Shown piece after piece: positions 9,589-54,542 of a stretch of 64,000 nucleotides of DNA (positions within the stretch are counted from its first letter, which is position 1; each line of letters begins with the position of its first letter). The position numbers and the translations under genes are program-made. The DNA lies in the NCBI GenBank assembly GCA_964519615.1, contig CAZFIM010000001.1:112254-176253 (forward strand), read 5' to 3'. The DNA comes from an uncultured Dehalococcoidales bacterium. Its GTDB lineage: Bacteria > Chloroflexota > Dehalococcoidia > GIF9 > UBA5629. The notes under the pieces were generated by a model. That model was not told where the DNA came from and made no database searches. It worked only from the letters and a program-made list of their open reading frames with translations.

Positions 9589-9627
9589 CTCGAGGCGGGA
9601 CATATTTCAGCCGTAAAGGAGTCTGCA

Positions 9628-10533: not shown

Positions 10534-10614
10534 TTTTGATAATCATTATCGCTGAATTATAATGAATTGTATGAACGTATAGTCCCTCGCAAGATAGTAA
10601 GGAGGATTGAAAAA

Positions 10615-12936: not shown

Positions 12937-12976
12937 GACTAAGAGCAAGGGAGCGTCTTATTAGAGGAGGGTAACT

Positions 12977-13531: not shown

Positions 13532-13532
13532 G

Positions 13533-14759: not shown

Positions 14760-14779
14760 GATAAACCAGGAGGAACAGC

Positions 14780-16638: not shown

Positions 16639-16645
16639 AAAGAGC

Positions 16646-29116: not shown

Positions 29117-29425
29117 TTACGATCCTCCGTGAGGTTAGATTATCTCTCCTCACCGTACAGTGCAGCCAACATCTTAATCATACCGTATTATATAGTGTAA
29201 AACCAGCGAGAATGTACATCATTTGCAGACCTCTTGCCAACATCCCGCTAATAATACTTCTGTACACATTATATTATAAGGGGCATGTCAAGAGACGGTA
29301 GAAAACGTTCCTTGCTTATGCTGAAGTATCTTCATGGAGGAAAAACCTTTAGCAGGGGCAACTCCCTCCATTATTATTCAGAGGTGGTACAATTACCTTA
29401 TCGACGGATAAAGGAGGCTACGACA

Positions 29426-29923
29426 ATGTCCGGAACGGAATCGTTCTTAAAAGAAGCTTTTGCGGGGGAATCACAGGCAAACCAGAAATATCTTGCTTTT
29501 GCTGCTGTGGCCAATAAAGAGGGCTATAAGCAGATTGCCAGATTCTTCAGAGCAGCAGCAGCAGCGGAGACAGTTCATGCCGGTAACCATCTGAAAGTGT
29601 TAAGAGGAATAAAAACCACCGCGGAGAATTTGAAAGAAGCAGTTACAGGAGAAACTTTCGAGTTCGAAAAAATGTATCCGGAGATGATTGAAGCCGCCAA
29701 AGCGGAAGGCAATAAAGATGCAGAACGCAGTTTTTTCTATGCTAATGAAGTAGAGAAGGTTCATGCCCGTATATATCAATCCTTTCTGGATACTATGCAA
29801 AAAGACGAACAGGATTTTCCCTACTATGTATGCCCGGTATGCGGGTATACCGCTGAGAAAGAACTGCCCGGCAATTGCCCGGTATGCGGTACGAAAGGAA
29901 GCCTTTTTACCAGAATAGACTGA
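29426..29923 (+). CDS. rbr: Rubrerythrin (ferritin-like diiron domain plus C-terminal rubredoxin-like CxxC...CxxC)
   Basis: Start re-set to the ATG at 29426 (AAGGAGG RBS 8 nt upstream); the track ORF 29285 adds 47 non-homologous residues. EAFAGESQANQKY...ETVHA diiron motifs and CPVCGY...CPVCG. Confidence 0.85.
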   Translation: MSGTESFLKEAFAGESQANQKYLAFAAVANKEGYKQIARFFRAAAAAETVHAGNHLKVLRGIKTTAENLKEAVTGETFEFEKMYPEMIEAAKAEGNKDAERSFFYANEVEKVHARIYQSFLDTMQKDEQDFPYYVCPVCGYTAEKELPGNCPVCGTKGSLFTRID

Positions 29924-29944
29924 GACCGGGAGCGAATTCAGATT

Positions 29945-30682
29945 GTGGAGCAAATTTTCGCAGCAGGAGTAGACGGCTGCCGCAAAGGCTGGTGTGTGGT
30001 GACGCTGGGGCGGTATTCTGACTGGAGCGTTTCATGCTGTTCAACTATTGAGGAATTTTGGCAGGAATGCAGGGCTATTAAGCTTGCGCTTATCGATATA
30101 CCTATCGGCCTGAGAGATGGAGGCGAGCAGGAACGCAAGTGTGATCTGGAAGCCCGCCGCCTGCTGGGGAAGCGGGCCTCTTCAGTTTTTCGTCCGCCCT
30201 GCCGCTCCGCGCTTTCAGCGGTAAATTACGATCAGGCTCTTTTCGCCAACCGTGTCTGTACGGGCAAAGGCATTTCCCTACAGGCATTTCATATTACAGC
30301 GAAGATCGCAGAAGTGGACCGGTTCCTCTCCCGTCATCCGCAGGCGCGCGGTGTCATCAGGGAGACTCATCCGGAATTATGCTATTTCATACTGGCGCAA
30401 GGTCTTCCCATGCGCTTAAGCAAAAAGACGCAGCAGGGCCGGCGGGAACGCAGGGATATTTTGTCCTCTTTTTGTCCCTGGGCAGATGATATTATAAAAT
30501 ACGGTCTTGATAATTTCTTAAGAAGGGAGGTGGCGGAGGACGATATTCTGGATGCGCTGGCAGCGGCTCTTGTGGCTTTGCTAGCCGGCAAGGAAGGGTG
30601 CAAGCCTGACACCATACCGGCGCAGCCGGAAACCGATTCCTGCGGCCTGCCCATGGAGATTGTCCTTTACGGGAACATATAA
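29945..30682 (+). CDS. DUF429-family protein (predicted RNase H-like fold)
   Basis: 245 aa; the N-terminal AAGVDGCRKGWCVV resembles the DUF429 signature. Confidence 0.4.
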   Translation: MEQIFAAGVDGCRKGWCVVTLGRYSDWSVSCCSTIEEFWQECRAIKLALIDIPIGLRDGGEQERKCDLEARRLLGKRASSVFRPPCRSALSAVNYDQALFANRVCTGKGISLQAFHITAKIAEVDRFLSRHPQARGVIRETHPELCYFILAQGLPMRLSKKTQQGRRERRDILSSFCPWADDIIKYGLDNFLRREVAEDDILDALAAALVALLAGKEGCKPDTIPAQPETDSCGLPMEIVLYGNI

Positions 30683-30734: not shown

Positions 30735-32396
30735 CTAGCGGTATGATGAGCTCGCCCAGGCTACACGGATGCCCAGTACCACCGCTGCGATAAAGAGGAG
30801 CAGCAGAACAGCGGAAAGCACGGCAATATAGATAGGGACGAGTATCACTTCAAAAGAGGCTGCTTCAGACCAGGGGCTCTCTTTTCCCATCGAATCGATT
30901 ACTTTAATTCTCCACTGGTACTTCCCCGGCGGCAGAGCATCGGCCTGCGAGAGAGTATATGAAGATATACTCTCGGTTTCTTTTTCCAGAGCTATCCGGT
31001 CAAACGATGTGCCTCTGGCGATTTGAAGGACATAGCGTTCCTCCCCGGATTCCCTATCGAGTGACCAATCGAAGTCAACCCCTGTCAAACCCAGCGGCCT
31101 TTTCCCGAACAGGTATTTTATTCCATCGATATAGACACGCCCAATGGAGTAAAAAACAGCAAACCTCTGGTCCTGTACCGGGGCAAGGGGGGTGGGTGAT
31201 GATGTTGCGGCAAATTTCACCGTGTTTAAGGACGCCTGTGCCGTGTTGCCTTTGCTGTCACTGACCGAGATCATATGCTCGAGGCTTGTGGTCTGGGGAA
31301 CGATAAAGGAAGTTCTGAAGCTGCCGAGATCATCGCTCCTTAGCGGAGGCGTAATCTCGGTCTGATCGAAAGTGAATGTGAGGCGGTCTTTGGCGGTAAA
31401 GCCGGCCCCTTTTATAGTGACGCGTTCATCTATGGCAGCGGTGTCCGGTTCCACGGTTAGAGACGGAAGTACCTCGAAGTATGATTTGGGGACTTTGCCT
31501 TTAAGCGTATAAAGTTTGCCGAAGATACTGATAGCATGTTTGCCGTAAGAGCTGGGAGGGACCTCGATTTCCTGTACTATGCTGCCTCCGGTATCTGCGG
31601 TGAGCCCGGACATTATCACTTCGTCATCCCAGCTTATAGATATCCCCACTTCACTGGTACTGAAGCCGTGACCCCACAGGGTCGTCTTTGAACCGACCTG
31701 CCCCGCAACCGGCTCTATTTTGCTCCAGGGGGTTACCAGAAAAACGACCTCATCCACCTCTCCGGCATAGGTTGTACTCCCCTGCGCTCCAAACAAATGC
31801 TCTCCACGGGATATATTGGGAAGAATATAGGAGATGCTCCATGTCCCGAAAGCATCCGCAGAGGTCAAGGTGCTGGATACTACAGTACCATCTACAGTGA
31901 TACTGATATTCGTTTCATATTTATCGAATCCATTTCCAGTGACCGTAAGCTGTGTCTGCGGTTCACCCATCGGCGGAAAGACCTTGATTGACGGAAGTAC
32001 CTCGAAAGAAACGGAAGCGGTGCTTTCAGACCAGTTGCTGTCGTCAGAGATAAAAATGGTATGTTCGCCTCGAGCGGCATGCGGTATCTCAATTGTATAG
32101 AGTATGGTGCCTTGAGCTGAAACGGGGACATCTTCAGCTATGATTGCCTCATCCCAGTAGACAGCAGCCAGACTGCCCGAAAAATTTTCTCCTCTAAGCT
32201 CTATGTTGGACCCTACAAGTCCTGATTGCGCCGATAACGTCAGATTTGCCCCCGCATAGGCAGGAGCCGGGAAAACAGCCGCAGCGACAATAACGATACA
32301 GGTGCATATCAGCAGGGACAGCAGGGCAGCATGGCATGCGTTTTCTTTTATTGTTTTATTAGCCGGTCTCTTCTGGTTACGGTCTCTGCCGGGCAC
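30735..32396 (-). CDS. Membrane-anchored surface protein with tandem Ig/TIG-like repeats and a C-terminal FN3-like domain (paralog of 55866..57638)
   Basis: 553 aa; signal peptide, repeated about 90-aa beta-rich modules, C-terminal GKYQWRIKVIDSMGKESPWS then a TM helix. Confidence 0.5.
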   Translation of the reverse strand: MPGRDRNQKRPANKTIKENACHAALLSLLICTCIVIVAAAVFPAPAYAGANLTLSAQSGLVGSNIELRGENFSGSLAAVYWDEAIIAEDVPVSAQGTILYTIEIPHAARGEHTIFISDDSNWSESTASVSFEVLPSIKVFPPMGEPQTQLTVTGNGFDKYETNISITVDGTVVSSTLTSADAFGTWSISYILPNISRGEHLFGAQGSTTYAGEVDEVVFLVTPWSKIEPVAGQVGSKTTLWGHGFSTSEVGISISWDDEVIMSGLTADTGGSIVQEIEVPPSSYGKHAISIFGKLYTLKGKVPKSYFEVLPSLTVEPDTAAIDERVTIKGAGFTAKDRLTFTFDQTEITPPLRSDDLGSFRTSFIVPQTTSLEHMISVSDSKGNTAQASLNTVKFAATSSPTPLAPVQDQRFAVFYSIGRVYIDGIKYLFGKRPLGLTGVDFDWSLDRESGEERYVLQIARGTSFDRIALEKETESISSYTLSQADALPPGKYQWRIKVIDSMGKESPWSEAASFEVILVPIYIAVLSAVLLLLFIAAVVLGIRVAWASSSYR

Positions 32397-32695
32397 CTGT
32401 TTACCTCCCAGGAATTTTCACGGCGGACATCGGACTATCTGTAGCTTAAAGTATTTACTCTAAAAAAGCAACGGTTGCAGTGCTCATGGAGATGGCCGGT
32501 CATACAACAGAGGGAGAAAACGGCAAGATGTCAGACAGATGTGCGCAAAGAGAACCGCTGCCGGGTAACGGGCATATTATTGCATGTTGCCCGCAGAACA
32601 TATATAATGCTCGTATATAACTTTGTTGATTATTTTCCCGTCATACCGAAAATATAATCAGGCCAAACCATAGCCGGAATCGTGAGGCAGGGAAG

Positions 32696-32863
32696 GTGTA
32701 TATAGGACATAAGGCAGTTTGTCCCGAGTGCGGAAGCCAGTGGTGGGGATGGAGCGTCAAAGACCACCCCATATGCGATAAATGCGGGGCGAAACTGATC
32801 ATACTTGAACGGGGGAAGGAGCATGCATCTCTGCCCTCCCTCGAACGAAAAGAGATGAAGTAA
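32696..32863 (+). CDS. Candidate small zinc-ribbon protein (55 aa, GTG start)
   Basis: VYIGHKAVCPECGSQWWGWSVKDHPICDKCGAKLIILERGKEHASLPSLERKEMK with a CxxC...CxxC ribbon; GAGG 9 nt upstream. Shorter than the length cut-off of the ORF track. Confidence 0.3.
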   Translation: MYIGHKAVCPECGSQWWGWSVKDHPICDKCGAKLIILERGKEHASLPSLERKEMK

Positions 32864-32919
32864 GGCTGGCTGAAGGTATCCGCGTGCTTCCGTTGCGTTG
32901 TTTTTCCATGTAGTACGAA

Positions 32920-33402
32920 TCAGGGTAGATAGGTGATTTCCGCGGCAGGCTTTTCCAGCAGATCGAAAGCGATAGCCGCTTCTGTAAAAAGGTCAACGAA
33001 GGATTCATCCGCATAACGCCCGAATGTAACGAAACGCTTTATCCTTGCGTTCACCAGCATTTTTGCACAGAGAATACAGGGGGAATGGGTGCAATAGATG
33101 GTCGAGCCCTCCAGGCTAACGCCGTGCAGTGCCGCCTGAATGATCACATTTTGCTCTGCATGGATAGCACGGCATACTTCATGCATGGTCCCTGACTCGA
33201 TGTTGCGCTCATTCCGAAGGCAGCCTAGCTCCAGACAGTCCTTCAGTCCTGCTGCAGCGCCGTTGTAGCCCGTGGACAGTATGTGCTTATCACGGACAGC
33301 CACGGCGCCCACGTGGTGTCTTAAGCAAGTGGAGCGCTCTGCCACTACAGAAGCTATTTTAAGGAAATATTCATCTATACCCGGTCTTTTTATCCCATTC
33401 AT
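32920..33402 (-). CDS. dCMP/cytidine deaminase family protein
   Basis: 160 aa; HAEQNVI...CTHSPCILCAKML zinc-binding deaminase motifs. Confidence 0.8.
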   Translation of the reverse strand: MNGIKRPGIDEYFLKIASVVAERSTCLRHHVGAVAVRDKHILSTGYNGAAAGLKDCLELGCLRNERNIESGTMHEVCRAIHAEQNVIIQAALHGVSLEGSTIYCTHSPCILCAKMLVNARIKRFVTFGRYADESFVDLFTEAAIAFDLLEKPAAEITYLP

Positions 33403-37095: not shown

Positions 37096-38127
37096 ATGAT
37101 TGGGAAAAACGCTCATATTACCGTTATCGGCGCGGGAGCAATAGGCGGCGTTACGGCAGCTTTGCTGCACCGGGCGGGATATGACGTTCAGGTGGTCTGC
37201 AACTCACCTGAGCTGGCAGCGGCGGTAGAGAGCAGGGGGCTGCATATAACGGGCATCAAAGGAGATTTCTCAGTCCGTTTATCTGCTGTCGCGCATATCG
37301 CAGAACTGCAAGGCAAAAAGGACCTTATAATCATGGCTACCAAGGCCGTGGACCTCCAGAAAGCAGCGCAGGAAATAGTTCCCTTTATGAACGAGGATTC
37401 TCTGGCCGTATGTATGCAGAACGGCATTTGTGAGCCGGCTCTGGCAGAGGTACTGGGGAGGGGGCGGGTAGTGGGGTGTATCGTGGGGTGGGGCGCAACC
37501 TTTCACCGTCCCGGCGAGCTGGAGATCACCGCCTCCGGCAAGATGATACTGGGCAGTATCTTCGAGCCAGCAGACGAGCGCCTGCCGGCGGTAGCGGATA
37601 TACTGCGGGCAGTCTACCCCGTGCGCATTTCTCATAATATGATGGGGCACCGCTATGCCAAACTGGTGATCAACTGCTGCATCGCTTCGCTGGGGGTTGT
37701 CTGCGGCCTGCCTTTGGGACAAATGTTGTCAATGAGCAAGGCACGCAACATCATGATCGCTGTAATCAAGGAGTGTATGGCGGTGGCGGACGCCATGGGG
37801 GTAAAAGTGGAGCCCTTTTTCGGGCGGCTCGATTATCATTCTTTCGTCAACGGTTCGGGCTGGTGTAGCGATGCTAAGCGCCATATGCTGCTGCGCCTGG
37901 TGGGTTTCAGGTACCGCAGGCTGCGCTCATCCAGCCATACCTCTCTTATGCGCGGACGCCAGACGGAGATAGACTATCTCAACGGGTATGTCGCACAGAA
38001 AGGCAGGGAATGCGGTATTGCAACGCCGGTCAACGATGCCGTTATTGCCGTAGTCAAGGAGATCGAGAAGGGTGACCGGACGGTCTCAATACATAATTTC
38101 AATGACGGCAGGTTCTCAGGGCTTTAG
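37096..38127 (+). CDS. panE: 2-dehydropantoate 2-reductase (ApbA/PanE family)
   Basis: 343 aa; N-terminal Rossmann ITVIGAGAIGG; C-terminal KPA-reductase motifs (TEIDYLNG). Confidence 0.7.
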   Translation: MIGKNAHITVIGAGAIGGVTAALLHRAGYDVQVVCNSPELAAAVESRGLHITGIKGDFSVRLSAVAHIAELQGKKDLIIMATKAVDLQKAAQEIVPFMNEDSLAVCMQNGICEPALAEVLGRGRVVGCIVGWGATFHRPGELEITASGKMILGSIFEPADERLPAVADILRAVYPVRISHNMMGHRYAKLVINCCIASLGVVCGLPLGQMLSMSKARNIMIAVIKECMAVADAMGVKVEPFFGRLDYHSFVNGSGWCSDAKRHMLLRLVGFRYRRLRSSSHTSLMRGRQTEIDYLNGYVAQKGRECGIATPVNDAVIAVVKEIEKGDRTVSIHNFNDGRFSGL

Positions 38128-38187
38128 TCCCCGCTCAGGGCAGCACGGGGGCTCTCGTATATCTTCCGTCAAACTGTAGCTACGTGT

Positions 38188-38424
38188 TCAGCTGCTGCCT
38201 TTTTTCTCCTTTAGAATTGCGATTATCTCTTCAGCGGCAGGTAAGTGCCCGACCGTATATTTGGAAAAGACAAGCTCCCCATCTACTCTCACATCGAACA
38301 TGCCTTTTTGGCCGGGTAAGACCTGCGCATTTGCCCCCATTGTGCTTTTCAATTCGTCCGCCAGACTGACGGCATGCGGCTGGTAGCCCGGTCAAATCTC
38401 GCAATAGTATATCTCGATATTCAT
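38188..38424 (-). CDS. selW: SelW/Rdx-family selenoprotein with an in-frame UGA (Sec) at codon 11
   Basis: Translation with TGA read as U: MNIEIYYCEIUPGYQPHAVSLADELKSTMGANAQVLPGQKGMFDVRVDGELVFSKYTVGHLPAAEEIIAILKEKKGSS. Rdx-family CxxU motif and downstream FDVxVDGELVFSK...G.LP...EII. AAGGAGAGG RBS 6 nt upstream. The UGA lies at 38392-38394. Confidence 0.7.
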
Positions 38425-38504
38425 TGATGCCTCTCCTTACAATGCATATTTGTCCCTGCAGGGCCGCAGCTTTACTCTGATATTAACCGCATCAATATTT
38501 GATC

Positions 38505-38543
38505 GAAAACGCAGGGAGAGCGTTTATGATTTACTCTCCCCGC
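38505..38543 (-). terminator. Putative intrinsic terminator after the cupin gene
   Basis: Stem GCAGGGAGAG / CTCTCCCCGC (one mismatch) with a 13-nt loop, followed on the minus strand by GCGUUUUCGAU. Confidence 0.4.
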
Positions 38544-38546
38544 AGG

Positions 38547-38894
38547 TCACTCGTACTGAACAGGCACAGCGCATATCATCACCAGAGGCTCGCTTGCCGA
38601 TGTATTGATGTATTGATGCGTCTCTCCCGGCATGACCAGAATAAAATCTCCTTTTCTGATCTTGTTTTCGCTCTCTCCTGACACGGCTGTTCCCGCCCCT
38701 TCGATAATGTAATTCATGTGCTCGAAGGGGTGACTGTGCCTGGGGGTATGGCCGCCCGGTTCGATGGAGAATACGCGGAAGGAACAGGTTGGCGCTCCGT
38801 CTTCTTTTGAGAGCGGGACCTGTTTAGTTATACCTTTTGCCCCTTCCATCTCCGGCTTTATTTTGACAACTGTATCGAGGTTTGATATATGCAT
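38547..38894 (-). CDS. Cupin-domain protein
   Basis: 115 aa; the two-His cupin motif region (GGHTPRHSHPFEH...) and jelly-roll size. Confidence 0.6.
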   Translation of the reverse strand: MHISNLDTVVKIKPEMEGAKGITKQVPLSKEDGAPTCSFRVFSIEPGGHTPRHSHPFEHMNYIIEGAGTAVSGESENKIRKGDFILVMPGETHQYINTSASEPLVMICAVPVQYE

Positions 38895-38965: not shown

Positions 38966-39397
38966 CTAATAGTCGTTCGGTGCTTTAGTGAGGGGGCGGC
39001 GCAGGCGTTTAAGCGCGGACCTTTTCCGTTTATCATCCAGACGCCGTTTTTTCGCGGTGAGAGAGGGTCTTGTCCTGTGCCGGACCTTCGGCTCCTGTGT
39101 CGCTTCCTTAAGCAGGCTGATAAGCCGGCTATAGGCATCTTTGCGGTTTGCCTTCTGAGTGCGGAAGCGGTGGGCTCTGATAACCAGAAAGCCGTCGCGG
39201 GTTATGCGGCTGCCCGCATTTGCAAGCAGGCGGCCGCGCACATCTTCAGGAAGCGATGGAGACCCGGCAGCATTAAAGCGCAGTTGCACCGCGCTGGCAA
39301 CCTTGTTAACGTTCTGTCCGCCCGGTCCGCCTGACTGGACGAACTCCTCCTGTATCTCCTTCTCATCGATAGTTATATCGGGAGTTATTATTATCAT
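38966..39397 (-). CDS. arfB: Peptidyl-tRNA hydrolase ArfB (alternative ribosome-rescue factor, class I RF-like)
   Basis: 143 aa; GGQ motif (SGGPGGQNVNKV), basic C-terminal tail. Confidence 0.8.
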   Translation of the reverse strand: MIIITPDITIDEKEIQEEFVQSGGPGGQNVNKVASAVQLRFNAAGSPSLPEDVRGRLLANAGSRITRDGFLVIRAHRFRTQKANRKDAYSRLISLLKEATQEPKVRHRTRPSLTAKKRRLDDKRKRSALKRLRRPLTKAPNDY

Positions 39398-41135: not shown

Positions 41136-41519
41136 ATGGCTGCATGTGAGCAGTCTTGCTGCTCCCGTTGCGGGTGTTCCATCCCTGCAGGGGAAAGCTA
41201 TGATTTGAGTGGACAGGTGTTATGCGAGGAATGCTATCTGCTGGCAGCTCACCGCGTGCAGGCCTGCGACCCGCTGGCGGTGCGTTCGGCGCAGTCCGCC
41301 AGAAAGGCTTTCGGCATCAGCCCGCTGGAAGGCTTGACGGCGCAGCAAAGGGCGATCAGGGAGTATATAGCGGCTAAAGGTAGAGCTGCGGCTGGAGAAC
41401 TGGAAAGAGAGCTTGGTATTCCCCCCGCTGAGCTTCATAACGATCTGGCTGTCCTGCGCCACTGCGAACTGGTTAAGGGACAGAAAGAAGGCGGCACGGT
41501 CTATCTGGTGCTCTACTGA
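41136..41519 (+). CDS. Hypothetical small protein: N-terminal Cys-rich zinc ribbon plus C-terminal winged-helix-like domain
   Basis: 127 aa; CSRCGC...CEEC, then LTAQQRAIREYIAAKG...ELERELGIPPAELHNDLAVL. Confidence 0.3.
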   Translation: MAACEQSCCSRCGCSIPAGESYDLSGQVLCEECYLLAAHRVQACDPLAVRSAQSARKAFGISPLEGLTAQQRAIREYIAAKGRAAAGELERELGIPPAELHNDLAVLRHCELVKGQKEGGTVYLVLY

Positions 41520-41523
41520 GCCG

Positions 41524-42039
41524 CTACCTCTTCAAACTCTCCGCGATACCTTGCGCCCATTTTTCAATGGCGTCCCAATCGCGCCAGTCTCCCAGCGGCG
41601 CCTTGATGTTCTTGATGGCCGCCTTCTCCAGAAAATTGAATTTATCGAGGTTGATCATCCCGTGAAAGACGGCTATATCGCGCGGCTTGATTGCCTCGAT
41701 TACCGGCTCCAGCGCCGACGGATAGCGCCAACCCTGTACCAGTGCCTCAGGATCGCCCTGCCCTGTCGGGCCGCTGGAGAAGATCCACACAGGGACTGCT
41801 GACAGCGCTTCCCGGTTGGATTTAACGAAGGAAGCAGCATCTTTGCGCCACTGCCCGATATAGACGGCACTTCCCAGCACAACCGCCCTGTAACGCGCCG
41901 GGTCTTTTACCTCTTTTACAGGCATAACCTCGGCCTCAAGTCCCGCCTTAAGCAGGACATGTCCGATTCTCTGTGCTATCTCCGCTGTGGCCCCGTATTT
42001 GGTAGCATAGGTAACTAATACGGTATCGCTCATCAACAC
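41524..42039 (-). CDS. Flavodoxin-like domain protein (Flavodoxin_5 / HemG-like)
   Basis: 171 aa; N-terminal VLVTYATKYGATAEIAQ flavodoxin-like P-loop for FMN. Confidence 0.5.
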   Translation of the reverse strand: MLMSDTVLVTYATKYGATAEIAQRIGHVLLKAGLEAEVMPVKEVKDPARYRAVVLGSAVYIGQWRKDAASFVKSNREALSAVPVWIFSSGPTGQGDPEALVQGWRYPSALEPVIEAIKPRDIAVFHGMINLDKFNFLEKAAIKNIKAPLGDWRDWDAIEKWAQGIAESLKR

Positions 42040-42094
42040 AGTCCTGTCGCATCATGGGGGATGGTGTCCCTCGATGCGTTTTTCTTCTTTGCTT

Positions 42095-42751
42095 TTAGCG
42101 GTTCCTTACCCTGACAGTGAAGCCCTGGCTTTTGAAATCGTCGACCAGTTCTTCTATTTTGTCGCTGTCCTGGAGATGGAAGCAGACGACCTTATTTATT
42201 TCTTCCTGCGGACTTTCGATATGGATGGTCGTGATCTTGTGGCCGTGCTTATGGATGGTAGCGACCAAATTCTCCATCTGCTCCAACCCTTTGCCTTTGA
42301 TCAACCCGCCGGTGACCTCGATGCGCGTCCCGGGTATATTTATTCCCAGCAGCGGATTGATGATACTTTCAAAGAAATCGTCACTGGTTACTATACCCAC
42401 AATAGCATCATTTTCCATTACCACCACCGAGCCGATGCGGTTCTTCTGCGCCAGCGCCACCACTTCCTCTGCATCCATATCGGGCGGCACGGTGACCACG
42501 TTCTTGGTCATGACCTCTTTTACGGTGATTCTGTCCAACAGATAGGTGAGCTCCCAGATAGAAAGCGAGCTCGCCTTGCTGGGCGAGGCCTGTTCTATGC
42601 TGCGCGAGGTGACGATCCCCTTCAGTTTGCCCTTATCGACAACAGGCAGCCGCTTGATGCGGTGTGCAGCCATGATGCGTTTGGCCTCGGCAATACTGGT
42701 GCTGCTGGGTACGGTGACGACATTGTAGGACATGATATCTTTTACTTGCAT
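42095..42751 (-). CDS. CBS-domain protein (two CBS pairs)
   Basis: 218 aa; four CBS repeats. Confidence 0.7.
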   Translation of the reverse strand: MQVKDIMSYNVVTVPSSTSIAEAKRIMAAHRIKRLPVVDKGKLKGIVTSRSIEQASPSKASSLSIWELTYLLDRITVKEVMTKNVVTVPPDMDAEEVVALAQKNRIGSVVVMENDAIVGIVTSDDFFESIINPLLGINIPGTRIEVTGGLIKGKGLEQMENLVATIHKHGHKITTIHIESPQEEINKVVCFHLQDSDKIEELVDDFKSQGFTVRVRNR

Positions 42752-43016
42752 TCTGCCCTCCCCTTGTTTTTAAGTTGTTTATTTAAATGACGCCTTCACT
42801 AAACAGGATTAGCTCCCGGGTCATGCGAGAACTGCTAGTAATTGTATGATACGAGTATAACCTGCCGCAGGGACAAGTTCAAGGGGTTTTACTTATTGAA
42901 TGGCAGGCTTACGTAGTGTTGCCTTCTCAACAGACACATGGTAAACTTAATGCGTAAATGCGCATATAAGGATACATGCATATTTAGGCCGTGAGGCCTG
43001 ATAAAAAATAGAGTAT

Positions 43017-44057
43017 ATGATAATGGACTATCTTCTTCACCTCATGCAGGGCGGCCTTACAGCACTGGTCGACTATTTATCACTGCATGTGCTCACGTGC
43101 CTTATTCCGGCCTTTTTTATCGCCGGAGCCATCTCTGCCTTTGTCTCACAGAACGCGATACTGAAATATTTCGGGCCTAAAGCCAAAAAGCTGGTTTCAT
43201 ACGGCGTTGCTTCTGTATCAGGTACGATTCTGGCTGTATGCTCCTGTACGATATTACCCTTATTCGGAGGCATCTATAAAAGGGGGGCGGGTCTGGGCCC
43301 GGCCATAGCCTTTTTATATTCCGGCCCTGCTATCAATGTGCTGGCGATCGTTTACTCGGCCCGCCTGCTTGGTTTTGATATAGGCGCTGGCCGTGCTATC
43401 GGCGCTATCATATTCTCAATTATTATCGGACTCATCATGGCGGCTATCTACAGGGAGGAAGAATCTCAGAAAGATGCAACTGCCTTTAATGCTTTACTTG
43501 ATGACTCTGACAGTAAACCCATCTGGCAGCAACTGCTCTTCTTCGCAGTTTTGGTGGGCATTCTGATCTTTGCCGCCTCAAAGCAGTGGATTGTCACTGG
43601 AGTGCTGCTGGCAGCGCTGGCTGTGATTCTGTGGCGGCTGTTTAGCCGCGGCGAAATCATCATCTGGCTGAAAGAGACGGTGAGATTCGTGCGCCTGATT
43701 GTGCCCTGGCTGCTGGCGGGTGTGTTTGCTGCAGGTATTATCACCACTGTCGTGCCGCAGGAAGCCGTAACCGCCTGGGTGGGCGGCAATGGGCTGCTTG
43801 CCAACTTCATTGCCTCATTTTTAGGGGCACTGATGTATTTTGCCACCCTTACAGAAGTTCCCATTATACGCGCTTTCATGGACCTGGGCATGGGAAAAGG
43901 ACCGACTATGGCATTGCTGCTGGCGGGACCTGCGCTCTCGCTGCCCAATATGCTGGTGATACGTAATATCATGGGCACGAAAAAGACGGTGACATATGTT
44001 GCCCTGGTGGTCATCATGGCAACCATCTCAGGTTATATCTTCGGGCTCATTACATAA
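43017..44057 (+). CDS. COG0701/ArsP-like permease
   Basis: 346 aa; TM protein with CSC motif in TM region (AVCSCTILPLFGG); typically paired with a small thioredoxin-like protein. Confidence 0.6.
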   Translation: MIMDYLLHLMQGGLTALVDYLSLHVLTCLIPAFFIAGAISAFVSQNAILKYFGPKAKKLVSYGVASVSGTILAVCSCTILPLFGGIYKRGAGLGPAIAFLYSGPAINVLAIVYSARLLGFDIGAGRAIGAIIFSIIIGLIMAAIYREEESQKDATAFNALLDDSDSKPIWQQLLFFAVLVGILIFAASKQWIVTGVLLAALAVILWRLFSRGEIIIWLKETVRFVRLIVPWLLAGVFAAGIITTVVPQEAVTAWVGGNGLLANFIASFLGALMYFATLTEVPIIRAFMDLGMGKGPTMALLLAGPALSLPNMLVIRNIMGTKKTVTYVALVVIMATISGYIFGLIT

Positions 44058-44083
44058 AGAATACAACTAGGAGGAGGCAAAAT

Positions 44084-44338
44084 ATGAACATTAAAATTCT
44101 CGGTCCCGGTTGTGCGAAGTGCCACGCACTGGAAAAAGCAGTAAGCGAAATTATCAGTGAACTTAAGGTCGAAGCTCAGGTCGAATATGTGAAAGACATG
44201 GCGAAAATACTCGAGTATCCTATCCTCACCACGCCGGGGCTGGTTATCGACGGCAAAGTCATAACCTCCGGCAAGGTGCCGGGCAAGGCAGAGATGACAA
44301 AATACATAATGAACGCTCTGGCCGAACAGGAGAAATAG
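44084..44338 (+). CDS. Small thioredoxin-family protein (redox-active disulfide protein 2 type)
   Basis: 84 aa; MNIKILGPGCAKCHALE CxxC at N-terminus. Confidence 0.7.
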   Translation: MNIKILGPGCAKCHALEKAVSEIISELKVEAQVEYVKDMAKILEYPILTTPGLVIDGKVITSGKVPGKAEMTKYIMNALAEQEK

Positions 44339-44430
44339 AACAAAAAAATCAGGCAATGTTTAAAAGTATATGAGCAGGCGGGTGTTGTTCTCTGCTTGTT
44401 CCGAACGGGATACCTGATAAGGAGTAAAAC

Positions 44431-44967
44431 ATGATCAAAAATATATTATCTAAACTGGGCGTTTGTCTCGTGATGATAGTTATGCTTAGTGCGGTTGCTG
44501 CCTGCGATACGCCAACACCGGTACCGGCACAGCCCGATGAGCCGCAGTCTTCCGCACCGGCGGCAAGCGAAAAACCTGCTAGCAGCGAACCGCAGGTTAA
44601 GCCGGAAGCTCCCTCAGAGGATAATAATTATGTCGAGGTAGCATACTTTCATACCAAACGCCGCTGTGGGCCGTGTACATATATTGAGATAAGGACGCAA
44701 CATAACATAGAGACATATTTCCAGGATGAGCTTGCCAGCGGGAAGCTGGAATTCAACGTCTATGAGCTGGGATTGAAGGAGAATGAAGCCGTGGCCACAA
44801 AATATCAGGCTGTCGGCTCTCAACTCTTTATTAACACCATAGTAGACGGCAAGGACAATATACGGCATATGGAAGCTGTATGGGAAAAAGAATATCTGGA
44901 CGACCAGGAGAAATTCGACGCCCTTATCCAGGACCTGGTCAAAGAAGCGCTGGAGGCAGCAGGATAA
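44431..44967 (+). CDS. Extracytoplasmic thioredoxin-fold CxxC lipoprotein (paralog A)
   Basis: 178 aa; lipobox AVAAC, Pro/Ser-rich linker, VAYFHTKRRCGPCTYIE, ELASGKLEFNVYELG. Confidence 0.45.
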   Translation: MIKNILSKLGVCLVMIVMLSAVAACDTPTPVPAQPDEPQSSAPAASEKPASSEPQVKPEAPSEDNNYVEVAYFHTKRRCGPCTYIEIRTQHNIETYFQDELASGKLEFNVYELGLKENEAVATKYQAVGSQLFINTIVDGKDNIRHMEAVWEKEYLDDQEKFDALIQDLVKEALEAAG

Positions 44968-45674
44968 TGGATATCGGAAGCCTTGGCGGGGATTTCAATA
45001 TACCGATATTATCAGCCTTTTTACTGGGGCTGCTGACAGCGGTAAGCCCGTGTCCGCTGGCTACTAATATAGCAGCCATTGCCTTCATCAGCCGCAAGGT
45101 GTCGGAGCGCAAATTCGCCGTCATAACCGGCTCGCTTTATACGCTTGGGCGGATGTTTTCCTATTCCGTGATCGGTGTACTTATCATCGCTGCCGGCCTG
45201 GAAATACCCGGTATCTCGCTCTTCCTACAGGATGTGGGAGAGAAGGCATTGGGACCGCTGCTGATAGTCGTAGGACTGGTTATGCTCAATATAGAACGAC
45301 TCGGTTTTGGCAGGGGGGGAGGGCGATTATCTTCTCTTGGAGAGAAGGTAGCCAATTGGGGTACTGTGGGAGGCTTTCTGCTTGGCGTTATTTTTGCCCT
45401 GGCCTTCTGTCCTTACAGCGCAGTCCTTTATTTCGGAGTCTTGATACCGCTTGCGCTCAAGTCCGCCGGAGGTATTTCCTTCCCGGCGGTATATGCGCTG
45501 GGGACGGGGCTGCCCGTTCTAGTACTCGGCACATTGCTTTCCCTGGGCGTGAGTGGGGTTTCTTCATGGCTCAACGCTATATCCAGAGTTGAGCGGGTTG
45601 TCCGCATAATTGTCGCTATCGCATTCATCGGGATAGGCATCTACTATGTCTATCTATGGATTCAGCATGTATAA
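44967..45674 (+). CDS. ccdA: CcdA/DsbD-family transmembrane thiol-disulfide electron transporter
   Basis: Start at the ATG 44967 (MDIGSL...), overlapping the previous stop (TAATG). TM1 contains LLTAVSPCPL; six TM helices. Confidence 0.75.
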   Translation: MDIGSLGGDFNIPILSAFLLGLLTAVSPCPLATNIAAIAFISRKVSERKFAVITGSLYTLGRMFSYSVIGVLIIAAGLEIPGISLFLQDVGEKALGPLLIVVGLVMLNIERLGFGRGGGRLSSLGEKVANWGTVGGFLLGVIFALAFCPYSAVLYFGVLIPLALKSAGGISFPAVYALGTGLPVLVLGTLLSLGVSGVSSWLNAISRVERVVRIIVAIAFIGIGIYYVYLWIQHV

Positions 45675-45702
45675 CTTTAATGTAGCAGGATAGTTTGACG
45701 CT

Positions 45703-46197
45703 ATGGGAAAATTCAGCCGCTTAAAAAATTGGAGCTGTTTGCTCGTACTTCTTATGATTGCCGGCATGCTTTGCTCCTGTGAAAAAATCTTCAGCGATTA
45801 CTCGATATCGAATGCAGATCCGGCAGCACATGTCACCGGCCCGGCCGATCAGGTGGAGCTCGTCTATTTTCACCGTGAGCGGCGCTGTGAGGCATGTACC
45901 TATGCGGAGGAGCGGCTGTTATATCTGGTAAAGACATATTTTGCCGATGAACTTGCCAGCGGTAAACTTGTATTTCAGATTTACAATCTCGGCGATAAGA
46001 ATAGTCAGGCTCCTGCACAGAGATACAACGCTATCGGCTCTCAGCTTTTTATAAATGTCATTATTGATGGTGAGGACCATATCAGGTATGTGGAGGAAAT
46101 CTGGTACTGGGGATGTATAGATGACGAAAAAGTCTTCGATAAGGTGATTAAAAATATTATTACTAAAGGATTGTACGGTACCACGTTGCAGGAATAG
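45703..46197 (+). CDS. Extracytoplasmic thioredoxin-fold CxxC lipoprotein (paralog B)
   Basis: 164 aa; signal/lipobox GMLCSC, LVYFHRERRCEACTYAE, ELASGKLVFQIYNLG; clearly paralogous to 44431..44967. Confidence 0.45.
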   Translation: MGKFSRLKNWSCLLVLLMIAGMLCSCEKIFSDYSISNADPAAHVTGPADQVELVYFHRERRCEACTYAEERLLYLVKTYFADELASGKLVFQIYNLGDKNSQAPAQRYNAIGSQLFINVIIDGEDHIRYVEEIWYWGCIDDEKVFDKVIKNIITKGLYGTTLQE

Positions 46198-46236
46198 AGT
46201 TAGCAGCAAATATGAATTGCGGAAAGAAAGCGGAAT

Positions 46237-47316
46237 ATGAATACTATGGAGAAATCGATCAAAGGTAGCCTGCCGTTACTTGACCGTTTTCTCACCCTGT
46301 GGATTTTCCTGGCTATGGCCTTGGGGGTTGGGCTGGGCTATTTTATCCCGCAGGTTGCGGATGTTATCGGCTATTTCCAGGTTAATACCACCTCGATACC
46401 GATAGCTGTGGGATTGATCCTGATGATGTACCCGCCGCTGGCAAAGGTACGCTATGAGGAGATGGGCCGTGTCTTCCGTGACTGGCGTGTGCTGGGGCTT
46501 TCCCTGGTGCAGAACTACATTATCGGACCGCTGCTTATGTTCTTTGTTGCGATCCTGTTTCTGGGCTTTATCTGGCCGAATCCCGATTACATGGTAGGGC
46601 TCATCATGATCGGGCTTGCGCGCTGTATAGCTATGGTTATCATCTGGAATCAGCTGGCCAGGGGTGACAGCGAATACGCTGCGGGGCTGGTGGCGCTCAA
46701 CTCCGCCTTTCAGATCGTTTTCTATTCCGTCTATGCCTATATCTTCATCACTATTATGCCGGGCTGGTTCGGATTGGAGGGCTCGGTGGTCCATGTGGCT
46801 ATGGGCGAGATCGCCAAAAGCGTGCTTATATATCTGGGCATACCTTTCTTCGGAGGCATGCTGACTAGATTCATATTCCTCAAGATCAAGGGGCGTACAT
46901 GGTATGAGGAGCGTTTTATCCCGAAGATAAGCCCGCTTACGCTGGCGGCGCTGCTCTTCACTATTGTGGTAATGTTCTCGCTCAAGGGCGAGCTTATCGT
47001 GCAGATACCGCTGGATGTAGTCAAAATAGCGGTGCCTCTGCTGATCTATTTTGTCGTTATGTTCCTGCTCTCCTTTTATATGGGCAAAAGAATCGGCGCT
47101 GACTACTCTCGTACTGCCACCATCGCCTTCACCGCGGCGAGCAACAACTTCGAGCTGGCCATCGCCGTAGCCGTAGCCGTCTTCGGCATCGGCTCCGGGC
47201 AGGCTTTTGCCGCTGTTATCGGCCCGCTGGTGGAGGTGCCGTTATTGATAGGCCTTGTCAATGCTGCACTTTTCTTTCAGGAAAGATACTTTCATCATAA
47301 AGAAAAGGCAACATGA
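46237..47316 (+). CDS. acr3: Arsenite efflux transporter ACR3
   Basis: 359 aa; ACR3/BART family N-terminus ([20 protein letters not shown]), 10 TM. Confidence 0.85.
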
Positions 47317-47396: not shown

Positions 47397-48383
47397 ATGA
47401 GTGCTAAGAAAAAAAAGTATAAAGCGAAAGAAGCAAAGAGCGCCAGGCGTTTATCCTCCCCACCCGCCGGAGGAGCCGGCATTGTTTCCGGACAGCGGCG
47501 GAAAACCCTCTCTTTACCCAAAAAGTTGAGTATAAGGATATTAATGGCTGCGGCGGTGGTTATAGTGTGCGCGGCAGTTATCTGGGCTATTATCTTTTTA
47601 GCCGGCAGAGGCGGCTCTTCCCCCGATACTTCCGGCGTGGTAGATGGCGGCAGTATCAAAATAAGCAATGTAGATATTTCGAAAATCACGGAAAAGACAA
47701 TAACAGTAACGTGGAAGACAAATGTCCCTTCCAGCAGCCAGGTAATAGCCACAGAACAGGAATCAGGATTGGTTATTGCCGGATGGCCCGATGATGAGCT
47801 GCTTAAGGACCATAAATATGAGGTAGCAGGGCTGGAGCCCGATACTGCCTACCAACTTACGATAAAGGCAGTTGATGTGGAGGGGAGCGGGGTGGAGCTC
47901 AAACTTCAGGAACAGGTCGCAACCATGCCCGTACGAACATCAACTGATCTGGTTCAGGGTATGAAGGCTCCTCAGTTCGCTTTAAAAACACTGGCAGGGA
48001 AAGATGTCTCGCTTGCTGATTCCGGCGGCAAACAAATAATTCTGGTCTTCTGGGAAATGAGCTGCGCTTCCTGTAAAGAGCAGCTGCCGCTTATTCAGGA
48101 GTTCTTTTCATTGATGGACAGCAACGAATATATACTTCTCACTGTGTGTGTGAAAGGACGTCAGGCGCTTGTTGAAAGCTATGCTGCAGGGAGCAAATTT
48201 ACGTTCCCCATTCTGCTAGATGAGGAGGGGGCCGTAGCGGAAAAATATACTATCGCCGTCTACCCGACAACTATACTCATCGATGGAGAAGGGATCATAA
48301 TAAGTGTAAGGGAGGCCTCGTTCGGCTCTGTGGATGAGATGACAGGCTTTGTGGCGTCCGACAGCAACGCCCGAAGTGAATGA
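47397..48383 (+). CDS. Membrane-anchored FN3-domain / TlpA-like thiol-disulfide oxidoreductase (redoxin)
   Basis: 328 aa; N-terminal TM, FN3-like (TITVTWKTN...YQLTIKAVD), redoxin with WEMSCASCKEQ CxxC. Confidence 0.65.
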   Translation: MSAKKKKYKAKEAKSARRLSSPPAGGAGIVSGQRRKTLSLPKKLSIRILMAAAVVIVCAAVIWAIIFLAGRGGSSPDTSGVVDGGSIKISNVDISKITEKTITVTWKTNVPSSSQVIATEQESGLVIAGWPDDELLKDHKYEVAGLEPDTAYQLTIKAVDVEGSGVELKLQEQVATMPVRTSTDLVQGMKAPQFALKTLAGKDVSLADSGGKQIILVFWEMSCASCKEQLPLIQEFFSLMDSNEYILLTVCVKGRQALVESYAAGSKFTFPILLDEEGAVAEKYTIAVYPTTILIDGEGIIISVREASFGSVDEMTGFVASDSNARSE

Positions 48384-52044: not shown

Positions 52045-52260
52045 GGGTATCTTCTCCGGGATAATTATTTCCGGTCGATTGTATCATGGAATAATCCATA
52101 AACTCCAATATAAACACAGCAGCTGATGTGGGGAGGCATGGACTTTATCAGGAAGAACGTGGAATAATAGTACACGGAAGTGAAGCTCGTCTGAAACGGG
52201 CGATAAGACAGATGCACCCGTCCACCTGCTGCGGAAGTCAACGAAAGCAAGGAATATGAA

Positions 52261-52509
52261 ATGGCAGTGTATGAAAAATATACGGTATCGGGAAAGGACC
52301 TTCTGGACAAACTGAAGGAGCTCATAAGGCAGGGGAACATACGGCGGGTGCGCCTGATTCATGAGGGCAGGCCGCTTATCGATATTCCTCTTTCGATAGG
52401 TGCTCCGGCTGTAGCGATAACCGTTCTGGCGGTTCCGGTACTGGCTGCCATAGGAGCTGTGGCCGCGCTGGTTGCGGAGTGTACGATCGAGGTTGAAAAG
52501 GTAGAGTAG
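52261..52509 (+). CDS. DUF4342-like small protein
   Basis: 82 aa; MAVYEKYTVSGKDLLDKLKELIRQGNIRRVRL... matches the DUF4342 pattern; C-terminal hydrophobic segment. Confidence 0.4.
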   Translation: MAVYEKYTVSGKDLLDKLKELIRQGNIRRVRLIHEGRPLIDIPLSIGAPAVAITVLAVPVLAAIGAVAALVAECTIEVEKVE

Positions 52510-52565
52510 AGCAAAGGCAGTAAACCGGTTTATTATTTCGACTTTGCAAGGTACTGCTTGAACGT

Positions 52566-53258: not shown

Positions 53259-53458
53259 ATCCAGGCTGTTTCAGGGTGCTAATAATGCAGTAGCGCATCC
53301 GGCCTCTATTATCAGGCAATTATTGAGGCGGCCAACAGGAGCCGCCGTTTCCGCTCTCCATACACGACACAATATAATCGTTACGGCGGGCTCTCGATCA
53401 GTTTTACTGTAAATTCGTTTACGGCATCCTGTTAAAAGGCTGCGCTGAGGGGCTGAGT

Positions 53459-54355: not shown

Positions 54356-54542
54356 AGTTGTCCCCCATAAATTATTTTTGTCTTTAGAGATTAATAATAG
54401 TTGCCGTATCTGGTAAAGTCAATAGTAAGGGCTGGATTTATCGCATATAAGCCTGTATAGTGTGCATGTCTTCAGATGTTTCCAGGTAGTAAGGCAGTGT
54501 GTAGTATTTTTCCCCCGGAAGTAATCAAGTCTGCAGTGAATC

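What the first reader, a model, noticed from the sequence alone, without database searches (positions are those of the whole stretch)
38188..38424. Unannotated SelW/Rdx-family selenoprotein gene with in-frame UGA (CxxU), missed by the ORF track
The minus strand carries a strong RBS (AAGGAGAGG) 6 nt before an ATG. Eleven codons later comes TGA (38392-38394), and the same frame stays open for 67 more codons to a TGA at 38188-38190. Reading the internal TGA as Sec gives MNIEIYYCEIUPGYQ...FDVRVDGELVFSKYTVGHLP..EEIIAILKEK. That places the UGA exactly at the CxxU redox motif of the Rdx family (SelW/SelT/SelH), and the C-terminal G..F.V.VDGELVFSK...G.LP...EII block is the family hallmark. Conservation continuing through a stop codon is the classic signature of a selenoprotein. 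The only track ORF here (38184..38369, +) is an antisense artefact. The finding implies the genome encodes Sec machinery (selABCD) and may hide other UGA-interrupted genes.
Basis: partly seen in the sequence, partly recalled or inferred. Interest (0 to 1): 0.7.

Follow-up and report, generated by a model that had tools for sequence, protein, structure and literature searches.

The report
Missed SelW-like selenoprotein gene with SECIS
A small 78-codon gene that gene finders skip because it has an in-frame TGA is a typical bacterial SelW-like redox protein in which that TGA almost certainly encodes selenocysteine; this is a correct catch, but the protein belongs to a family known for about 20 years.

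Summary
On the minus strand there is an RBS (38438-38430), an ATG (38424-38422), a TGA at codon 11 (38394-38392), then 67 open codons to a terminal TGA (38190-38188).

With U read as C, the protein matches Pfam Rdx (51.6 bits, cut-off 22.6) and TIGR02174 CXXU_selWTH (46.9, cut-off 34.2) end to end across the TGA.

Every relative fetched as DNA with the N-terminus present has TGA at the same CxxU position, apart from two Cys-type copies fetched on purpose as controls. These relatives include Ktedonobacterales, Campylobacterales, Arcobacter and many metagenome contigs.

A 6-bp hairpin (CCGUCA-GUC-UGGCGG, 38372-38358) lies 19 nt after the UGA. In 15 distinct Sec-type sequences, 98.9% of its cells are paired and three pairs show compensatory changes. 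Two of those pairs join synonymous third-codon positions. The hairpin is degraded in the two Cys-type controls. It fits the published bacterial SECIS model in stem and loop size, G-U loop and spacing; the energy criterion is borderline.

No selA, selB, selC or selD lies in the window, so the Sec machinery remains unverified.

Verdict: this is a genuine, unannotated SelW-like selenoprotein gene, a new member of a well-known kind, and of low interest. The only twist is a rare extra codon that moves the SECIS 3 nt further from the UGA.

The parts
38430..38438 (-). Shine-Dalgarno-like AAGGAGAGG, 5 nt upstream of the ATG
   Evidence: Read directly from the sequence. It is kept (tAGGAGAGG) in the 97%-identical relative L006.
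38188..38424 (-). SelW-like / Rdx-family selenoprotein CDS: 78 residues including Sec11, plus the terminal TGA
   Evidence: Translation. PF10262 scores 51.6 bits (cut-off 22.6) and TIGR02174 46.9 bits (cut-off 34.2). This frame has the best synonymous:nonsynonymous ratio of the six frames against L006.
38392..38403 (-). CxxU redox motif (TGC GAG ATT TGA = C8-E-I-U11); the Sec codon TGA is at 38394-38392
   Evidence: It aligns with the CxxC of 2LJK and 3DEX and with the TGA of all Sec-type relatives.
38358..38372 (-). Bacterial SECIS core hairpin CCGUCA-GUC-UGGCGG (6 bp, 3-nt loop). The stem starts 19 nt after the UGA and the loop 25 nt after it. It is encoded within the codons for A-V-S-L-A-D.
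   Evidence: RNAalifold predicts exactly this helix on two alignments. 98.9% of cells are paired, 0 of 500 shuffles reach that value, register slides give 29-64%, and 3 pairs show compensatory change. Core energy is -5.9 kcal/mol. It is degraded in the Cys-type controls.
38378..38388 (-). Small 4-bp hairpin GGCU-ACC-AGCC inside the UGA-to-SECIS spacer; its role is uncertain
   Evidence: It appears in the MFE and centroid folds. It is also possible in L009 but not in most relatives, so it is not conserved. Listed for completeness only.
38184..38369 (+). Antisense 61-codon ORF (the only ORF a standard caller reports here); a shadow ORF, not a gene
   Evidence: Listed. Its frame shows 2 synonymous and 8 nonsynonymous substitutions against L006. 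The opposite strand carries a full-length Pfam match.

Best explanation
This is a functional gene for a small (78-residue) thioredoxin-fold SelW-like/Rdx redox protein whose active-site motif is Cys8-x-x-Sec11. Translation starts at ATG 38424. When the ribosome reaches UGA 38394-38392, the mRNA hairpin 19 nt downstream (38372-38358, apical loop G-U-C) is bound by the Sec-specific elongation factor SelB carrying Sec-tRNA(Sec). Selenocysteine is then inserted instead of terminating, and the remaining 67 codons are read to the real stop. What is shown here: the reading frame, family membership, conservation of the TGA, and conservation plus covariation of the hairpin. What is inferred from established knowledge of bacterial Sec decoding: SelB/tRNA-Sec dependence and the thiol/selenol oxidoreductase role. 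The cellular substrate is unknown, as it is for the whole bacterial family.
For: The frame and motif are. The CxxU aligns on the CxxC of solved Rdx proteins. A 97%-identical metagenomic relative (L006) keeps the TGA and the synteny. It has no substitution from the ATG to +105, and its 10 substitutions beyond that split 6 synonymous to 4 conservative. TGA sits at the homologous codon in all 16 relatives from two collection scans and in L019-L023, L026, L024b and L025b. Among 116 full-length database homologues, 103 are 'CxxW' and only 10 are CxxC. Wherever the DNA of a 'CxxW' entry was checked, the W was a TGA miscalled as Trp. For the hairpin, 89 of 90 cells are paired in 15 distinct sequences, three pairs have double-sided changes, and pairs 24/36 and 27/33 both join third-codon positions, so protein coding cannot explain them. 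The first loop base is an invariant G. Of the bSECIS model criteria (PMC13188914), stem and loop size, the N1-G-U-N-N2 loop pattern and the 16-37 nt spacing are met. The Cys-type paralogues have lost the hairpin, with 3 of 6 and 5 of 6 pairs and +1.3 and -4.3 kcal/mol. TGA is an ordinary stop in this genome, ending 16 of 49 long ORFs. SelW-like CxxU proteins are an established bacterial selenoprotein family (PMC1088965, PMC1794560) and are often missed by annotation (PMC4607533).
Against: No selA, selB, selD or tRNA-Sec is present in the 64-kb window, and no second selenoprotein gene is present there. The host's ability to decode Sec is therefore unverified. The core hairpin is weak (-5.9 kcal/mol, against the model's <= -7.5), and the region does not fold better than shuffled sequence. 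Rfam gives no hit. The hairpin lies 19 nt from the UGA, against 16 nt in almost all relatives, which could reduce efficiency. The compensatory changes come mainly from one deep split (the GC-rich clades against Campylobacterota) plus a few single events, so the number of independent events is small. The organism could not be identified.
Confidence: 0.88

Rival explanations
1. A relic selenoprotein gene. The lineage once decoded Sec but has lost the machinery, so translation now stops after 10 residues and the downstream frame is decaying.
For: No sel genes or tRNA-Sec are seen in the window. Loss of selenoproteins and of the Sec trait is frequent in bacteria (PMC1794560).
Against: The RBS, ATG, TGA, SECIS hairpin and the 67-codon frame are all intact. 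The comparison with L006 shows 6 of 10 substitutions synonymous in this frame. The binomial probability of that is about 0.02 if roughly 25% of random changes are synonymous (my calculation). There are no substitutions in the Sec/SECIS half. One 64-kb window covers perhaps 2% of a genome, so the absence of sel genes here says little.
Confidence: 0.07
2. Only the C-terminal fragment is made, from the internal ATG at Met30 (MGANAQ...), as the JGI gene call for the relative P0001 assumes. The upstream 10 codons and the TGA would then be irrelevant.
For: Gene callers produce this 50-residue model. There is an in-frame ATG at that position.
Against: That fragment would lack strand 1 and the CxxU active site, which define the family. 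The N-terminal MNIEIYYC block is identical to Arcobacter proteins that are only 36-42% identical overall. The strong RBS precedes the upstream ATG, not the internal one. Truncated calls are a known annotation artefact for SelW (PMC4607533).
Confidence: 0.02
3. TGA is read as a standard amino acid (Trp or Gly, genetic code 4 or 25), or by near-cognate suppression, rather than as Sec. Many database entries for this family read 'CxxW', which would suggest this.
For: 103 of 116 database homologues are recorded with W at this position.
Against: In this window TGA terminates 16 of 49 long ORFs, and all long genes are intact under code 11. The Rdx CDS itself ends in TGA. The 'W' entries come from taxa that use the standard code (Arcobacter, Ktedonobacterales). 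The conserved SECIS hairpin, and the Cys (never Trp) in true sense-codon homologues, point to Sec.
Confidence: 0.02

Closest known systems
Bacterial SelW-like selenoproteins (CxxU; Pfam PF10262 Rdx, formerly PF05169; TIGR02174 CXXU_selWTH). Reported in, for example, Geobacter sulfurreducens, Desulfotalea psychrophila, Desulfotomaculum reducens, Symbiobacterium thermophilum and Campylobacterota, and the most abundant selenoprotein family in the Sargasso Sea data (PMC1088965, PMC1794560, PMC4607533).
   Same: Size (~75 residues), the N-terminal hydrophobic strand followed by C-x-x-U, the conserved G.F.V..DG.L.FSK...GRFP..EI block, an in-frame TGA, and a small SECIS hairpin with G-U in the loop directly downstream within the coding sequence. 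These genes are commonly missed or truncated by annotation.
   Different: There is an extra residue after Sec (U-P-G-Y instead of U-N/G-Y), found in only 1 of 125 other Sec-type homologues. It places the hairpin 19 nt rather than 16 nt after the UGA. Identity to the nearest full-length relatives other than L006 is at most 48-49%. The host species was not found among the GTDB species representatives.
NF041051 SelTWH_Campy (the Campylobacterota SelT/SelW/SelH equivalog)
   Same: It is the best-scoring NCBIfam model (67.8 bits), and the N-terminal octapeptide MNIEIYYC is identical.
   Different: The score is below the 88-bit equivalog cut-off. The SECIS stem sequence differs (GC-rich CCGUCA/UGGCGG against CUUCUA/UAGAAG). 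It is not a member of that equivalog.
Eukaryotic selenoprotein W and the Cys-containing Rdx proteins MIEN1/C17orf37 (PDB 2LJK) and Streptomyces SAV_2001 (PDB 3DEX)
   Same: Same Rdx thioredoxin-like family, with the CxxU/CxxC motif at the equivalent position.
   Different: Eukaryotic SelW uses a 3'-UTR SECIS and SBP2/eEFSec. MIEN1 and SAV_2001 use Cys. Sequence similarity is remote (E values 2e-5 and 8e-4).
E. coli fdhF SECIS and the general bSECIS consensus model (Zhang & Gladyshev 2005, as summarised in PMC13188914)
   Same: A stem-loop within the coding sequence immediately 3' of the UGA, a small apical loop with G followed by U, and a UGA-to-loop distance (25 nt) within the 16-37 nt range.
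   Different: It is much shorter and weaker than the 40-nt fdhF element. No bulged U is evident. The core MFE of -5.9 kcal/mol is above the model's -7.5 threshold unless flanking structure is counted.

Membership tests
Rdx / SelW-SelT-SelH family (PF10262, TIGR02174) | Sequence match above the curated family thresholds over the full domain | tested here: met
   PF10262 scores 51.6 bits against a cut-off of 22.6, covering residues 2-72 and profile positions 1-73 of 74. TIGR02174 scores 46.9 against 34.2.
Rdx / SelW-SelT-SelH family (PF10262, TIGR02174) | CxxU or CxxC redox motif directly after the first beta-strand near the N-terminus | tested here: met
   C8-E-I-U11 aligns with the invariant C/C columns of homologues and with CEPC of 2LJK and CTQC of 3DEX.
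Rdx / SelW-SelT-SelH family (PF10262, TIGR02174) | Thioredoxin-like fold | not tested
The fold is inferred from homology to 2LJK and 3DEX.
Bacterial selenoprotein gene (Sec decoding of UGA) | In-frame UGA aligned with Sec or Cys in homologues, with conservation on both sides | tested here: met
   TGA is at the same codon in every Sec-type relative examined. Cys is at that codon in the CxxC homologues. The Pfam alignment spans the site.
Bacterial selenoprotein gene (Sec decoding of UGA) | bSECIS: 3-9 nt apical loop on a 4-16 bp upper stem | tested here: met
   A 6-bp stem with a 3-nt loop, or 5 bp plus a 5-nt loop A-GUC-U. The criteria are taken from PMC13188914.
Bacterial selenoprotein gene (Sec decoding of UGA) | [quoted passage not shown] | tested here: met
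   The loop is GUC. The first loop base is an invariant G in 15 of 15 sequences, and the loops are GUC, GUU or GGU.
Bacterial selenoprotein gene (Sec decoding of UGA) | bSECIS: 16-37 nt between the UGA and the apical loop | tested here: met
   25 nt in the window and 22 nt in the relatives.
Bacterial selenoprotein gene (Sec decoding of UGA) | bSECIS: MFE <= -7.5 kcal/mol | tested here: inconclusive
   The core hairpin is -5.9 kcal/mol. The 48-nt region is -11.7, but only by adding a separate 4-bp helix. The Arcobacter-type elements in this dataset reach only -2.9 to -4.2. The z-score against shuffles is not significant.
Bacterial selenoprotein gene (Sec decoding of UGA) | Evolutionary support for the SECIS helix (covariation; loss in Cys forms) | tested here: met
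   98.9% of cells are paired, 3 pairs show compensatory changes including pairs between synonymous third positions, 0 of 500 shuffles reach this, and slid registers give 29-64%. The Cys-type L025a keeps 3 of 6 pairs and L024a 5 of 6. Caveat: few independent events, and only two Cys controls.
Bacterial selenoprotein gene (Sec decoding of UGA) | Host encodes selA, selB, selC (tRNA-Sec) and selD | not testable with these tools
   Only 64 kb of the genome is available. None of these genes is in it (tRNA scan, Rfam, family scans). The species was not found in the genome collection.
Bacterial selenoprotein gene (Sec decoding of UGA) | Selenium actually incorporated at residue 11 | not testable with these tools
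   This needs 75Se labelling or mass spectrometry.
NF041051 SelTWH_Campy equivalog | Score at or above the 88-bit equivalog cut-off | tested here: not met
   67.8 bits. It is related to this equivalog but is not a member.

The most novel reading that the evidence does not exclude
The window copy, with its close relative L006 and the rare homologue P0015, may represent a spacing variant of the family's otherwise rigid SECIS geometry (hairpin 19 nt instead of 16 nt after the UGA, caused by one inserted codon). The host may also be an anaerobic Wood-Ljungdahl lineage that this gene's peptide patterns did not find among the GTDB species representatives. If decoding here needs a co-adapted SelB, or uses the extra 4-bp spacer hairpin (38388-38378) to restore the effective distance, it would be a natural experiment on how strictly UGA-to-SECIS spacing is enforced outside E. 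coli.
Probability: 0.1. Interest if true: 0.4.

Novelty: new member of a known kind. Interest (0 to 1): 0.2.

Why it matters
There are three practical points. First, the genome annotation should gain a 78-residue selenoprotein CDS (complement 38188..38424, transl_except Sec at 38392..38394) and lose the antisense ORF. Second, the gene is a good marker that the organism decodes Sec, so the rest of the genome should be screened for selABCD and for other UGA-interrupted genes, such as FdhA, HdrA and peroxiredoxins in an anaerobe with a Wood-Ljungdahl pathway. Third, the survey shows how badly this family is represented in bulk protein databases, where most entries are N-truncated or carry a spurious Trp at the Sec position. 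That matters for anyone mining selenoproteomes from such resources. Scientifically this is an ordinary member of a family described in 2004-2006, and the family's biochemical function is still unknown.

Tried and rejected
- Rfam, at gathering thresholds over the whole window and at E<=10 over 38100-38520, found nothing apart from one tRNA-Pro. No Rfam family matched this short in-CDS hairpin, so the result is uninformative.
- Single-sequence folding of the region was no better than shuffled sequence (z = +1.09 and +0.18), so the thermodynamic argument was dropped in favour of comparative evidence.
- I searched for Sec machinery and tRNA-Sec in the window and for tRNA-Sec in the flanks of 14 relatives' loci. 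None was found.
- I scanned all six frames for other ORF pairs split by a TGA. The candidates at 53459-54544, 52065-52514, 32500-33402, 52566-53372 and 29285-30682 turned out to be a tandem USP gene with junk upstream, low-complexity junk, dCMP deaminase with a genuine stop, a regulator, and two separate genes (rubrerythrin and DUF429).
- I tried to identify the organism. Exact-protein look-ups of PanE and ArfB were not on record. The genome-contig scan found only distant relatives.
A single-protein query was used instead.
- The sigma-70 promoter scan found no site on the minus strand upstream of the gene.
- Structure prediction was not run, because the intact protein cannot be submitted.

Full report
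**1. What is in the sequence**

The minus strand at 38438-38188 reads as follows.
- AAGGAGAGG at 38438-38430, then 5 nt.
- ATG at 38424-38422.
- Ten codons, MNIEIYYCEI.
- TGA at 38394-38392.
- 67 further sense codons, PGYQPHAVSLADELKSTMGANAQVLPGQKGMFDVRVDGELVFSKYTVGHLPAAEEIIAILKEKKGSS.
- TGA at 38190-38188.

A standard ORF list reports only fragments here, including the antisense ORF 38184-38369 (+).

**2. Is it more than chance?**

With U replaced by C, the 78-residue protein matches these models.
- Pfam PF10262 (Rdx): E=1.1e-13, 51.6 bits against a gathering score of 22.6. The match covers residues 2-72 and profile positions 1-73 of 74, so it runs across the TGA.
- NCBIfam TIGR02174 'CXXU_selWTH': 46.9 bits against 34.2.
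- The Campylobacterota equivalog NF041051: the best-scoring NCBIfam model, but at 67.8 bits it is below its 88-bit cut-off.

A search of PDB sequences finds the Rdx proteins MIEN1/C17orf37 (2LJK) and SAV_2001 (3DEX). Their CxxC motifs align on C8 and U11.

**3. Relatives**

A word-index protein search found only one hit, a 50-residue JGI call that starts at the internal Met30 and is named 'selT/selW/selH-like putative selenoprotein'. Its contig, L006, compares with the window as follows.
- It is 97% identical to the window.
- It has the same cupin-Rdx-PanE synteny.
- It keeps the ATG, the TGA and everything up to +105 unchanged.
- Its 10 substitutions in the CDS all lie in the 3' half.

In the Rdx frame those substitutions split 6 synonymous to 4 conservative. 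That is the best ratio of the six frames. The antisense 'track ORF' frame gives 2 to 8.

Scans of one-genome-per-species contigs and of metagenome contigs returned 17 loci.
- The named genomic sources are Ktedonobacterales, Campylobacterales and Arcobacter.
- Sixteen of the 17 loci include the N-terminus.
- All 16 of those have TGA at the homologous CxxU codon, with the frame open and conserved afterwards.

An exhaustive HMMER search with the post-TGA segment gave 146 cluster representatives.
- 22 are CxxC.
- 21 are 'CxxW'.
- About 98 lack the motif, and most of those are calls that begin just after the Sec position.

A profile search listed 120 homologues. Of the 116 that I could classify, 103 are 'CxxW' and 10 are CxxC. 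Wherever I held the DNA, the 'W' was a TGA (L003-5, L011, L019-23, L026). So the family is predominantly Sec-type and is systematically miscalled in bulk databases.

**4. The SECIS**

Single-sequence folding is no better than shuffled sequence, and Rfam has no hit. The comparative evidence is strong.
- On 11 and then on 15 distinct Sec-type sequences, RNAalifold predicts one helix and only one: window CCGUCA-GUC-UGGCGG at 38372-38358.
- On the 15-sequence alignment, 98.9% of the 90 cells are paired.
- None of 500 shuffles reaches the observed pairing or covariation score.
- Sliding the 3' arm by 1-3 columns drops pairing to 29-64%.
- Three of the six pairs show double-sided changes (C-G/U-A/A-U, G-C/U-A, C-G/U-A), and two more vary on one side only (U-G/C-G, A-U/G-U).
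- Two of the three covarying pairs join third positions of codons (Ala GCN with Ala/Glu GxN; xxN with Leu YUN), so the protein sequence cannot account for them.
- The first loop base is always G, and the loops are GUC, GUU or GGU.

Against the published bSECIS model (PMC13188914), three of the four criteria are met.
- Stem and loop size: 6 bp and 3 nt.
- Loop pattern N1-G-[G|U]-N-N2: here A-G-U-C-U, with A and U paired.
- Spacing from the UGA to the loop: 25 nt, within 16-37.

The fourth criterion, energy, is borderline. The core hairpin is -5.9 kcal/mol against the required <= -7.5. The Arcobacter-type elements in this dataset are weaker still, at -2.9 to -4.2 kcal/mol.

Two Cys-type genes serve as negative controls.
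- L025a retains 3 of 6 pairs (+1.3 kcal/mol in the canonical register).
- L024a retains 5 of 6, having lost one pair through a synonymous GCC->GCG change.

Both of these loci carry a second, Sec-type paralogue next door. L024b has an intact hairpin. L025b has 5 of 6 pairs, and its mismatch is the one unpaired cell among the 90.

Two caveats apply. The compensatory changes trace mainly to one deep split plus a few single events, and there are only two Cys controls.

**5. Context**

The neighbours are as follows.
- An acyl-CoA ligase and a TIGR00529 membrane protein.
- PanE/ApbA, convergent, at 37096-38127.
- A cupin at 38547-38894 (-).
- ArfB at 38966-39397 (-).
- A PPIase, and a tocopherol-cyclase-like protein.

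The window is origin-proximal (dnaA, gyrB, obg) and carries a CODH/ACS Wood-Ljungdahl cluster, so the host is an anaerobe. GC content is 51%, and TGA ends 16 of 49 long ORFs, so the genetic code is standard.

The window holds no selA, selB, selD or tRNA-Sec. A six-frame scan for ORFs split by a TGA produced no other credible selenoprotein gene. One 64-kb window cannot settle whether the genome has the machinery.

**6. Mechanism**

The best-supported reading (confidence about 0.88) is ordinary bacterial Sec decoding. SelB carrying GTP and Sec-tRNA(Sec) binds the hairpin while the ribosome is at the UGA. This yields a 78-residue thioredoxin-fold protein with a CxxU selenenylsulfide redox centre.
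- Shown here: the frame, the family, TGA conservation, and hairpin conservation with covariation.
- Inferred from established knowledge: SelB dependence and the redox role.

The rival readings, set out in the rivals section, are a relic gene in a Sec-less lineage (about 0.07), expression of only a C-terminal fragment (about 0.02), and TGA read as a standard amino acid (about 0.02).

**7. Comparison with what is known, and novelty**

Bacterial SelW-like CxxU selenoproteins were described in 2004-2006. They were the most abundant selenoprotein family in the Sargasso Sea data and occur in Geobacter, Desulfotalea, Desulfotomaculum, Symbiobacterium and Campylobacterota (PMC1088965, PMC1794560). [quoted passage not shown]

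This gene is therefore a new member of a known kind. The only distinctive detail is an inserted codon after Sec (U-P-G-Y). It is shared by 1 of 125 other Sec-type homologues, and it moves the otherwise fixed hairpin from 16 to 19 nt after the UGA.

**8. Verdict**

- The gene is ordinary in kind.
- Interest is low (0.2). The value lies in correcting the annotation and in flagging the genome as a probable Sec user.

Noticed in passing
Relatives' loci L003-L005, L011, L019-L023, L026; proteins P0148-P0263: Most database entries of this family carry Trp at the Sec position: 103 of 116 full-length homologues read 'CxxW'. On the DNA the codon is TGA, so some pipelines call these genes with genetic code 4. 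Most other entries are N-truncated calls that start after the TGA.
   Followed up: yes
L024:3001-3596 and L025:1664-2127: Tandem Rdx paralogues: a Cys-type (CxxC) gene followed 70-140 nt later by a Sec-type (CxxU, TGA) gene. The hairpin is intact in L024b, has one mismatch in L025b, and is degraded in both Cys-type copies. This could be a natural system for comparing Sec and Cys forms.
   Followed up: partly
window 38385-38391 (-), codons 12-13 (P-G): An extra codon after Sec relative to nearly all homologues (U-P-G-Y against U-N-Y) shifts the SECIS hairpin 3 nt away from the UGA. Only L006 and one remote homologue (P0015, U-S-G-Y) share it.
   Followed up: partly
window 47397-48383 (+): A membrane-anchored TlpA/ResA-like thiol-disulfide oxidoreductase with an ordinary CxxC (WEMSCASC). 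It matches the 'WAxxUGC' selenoprotein family NF041054 weakly (50 bits against a 300-bit cut-off). It is a Cys form, not a selenoprotein.
   Followed up: yes
window 3033-18568: An origin-proximal region containing dnaA (3033-4385), obg (4612-5691) and gyrB (6345-8270, -). These are followed by a Wood-Ljungdahl CODH/ACS cluster (methyltransferase 8713-9588, delta 9628-10533, CODH-like 10567-12936, beta 13533-14759, gamma 14780-16147) and a NuoF-like protein (16598-18568). The host is an anaerobe with an archaeal-type ACS.
   Followed up: partly
window 38176-38205 (+): A terminator-like hairpin plus T-run on the + strand overlaps the last codons of the Rdx CDS. It may terminate the convergent panE gene (37096-38127), or it may be chance (1 found against 0.9 expected in shuffles).
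   Followed up: no
window 38966-39397 (-): ArfB, a ribosome-rescue peptidyl-tRNA hydrolase, lies two genes upstream of the UGA-recoding gene on the same strand. This is probably coincidental. L006 is too short to show whether the linkage is conserved.
   Followed up: no
window 30735-32396 (-) and 55866-57638 (-): Two paralogous large proteins with IPT/TIG and Rha78A-like Ig domains, presumably cell-surface proteins.
   Followed up: no
window 41136-47316: A metal/arsenic-resistance-like cluster: an ArsR/SmtB-type regulator (41136-41519), a SaoE/SO_0444-like efflux permease (43017-44057) and an ACR3 arsenite transporter (46237-47316).
   Followed up: no
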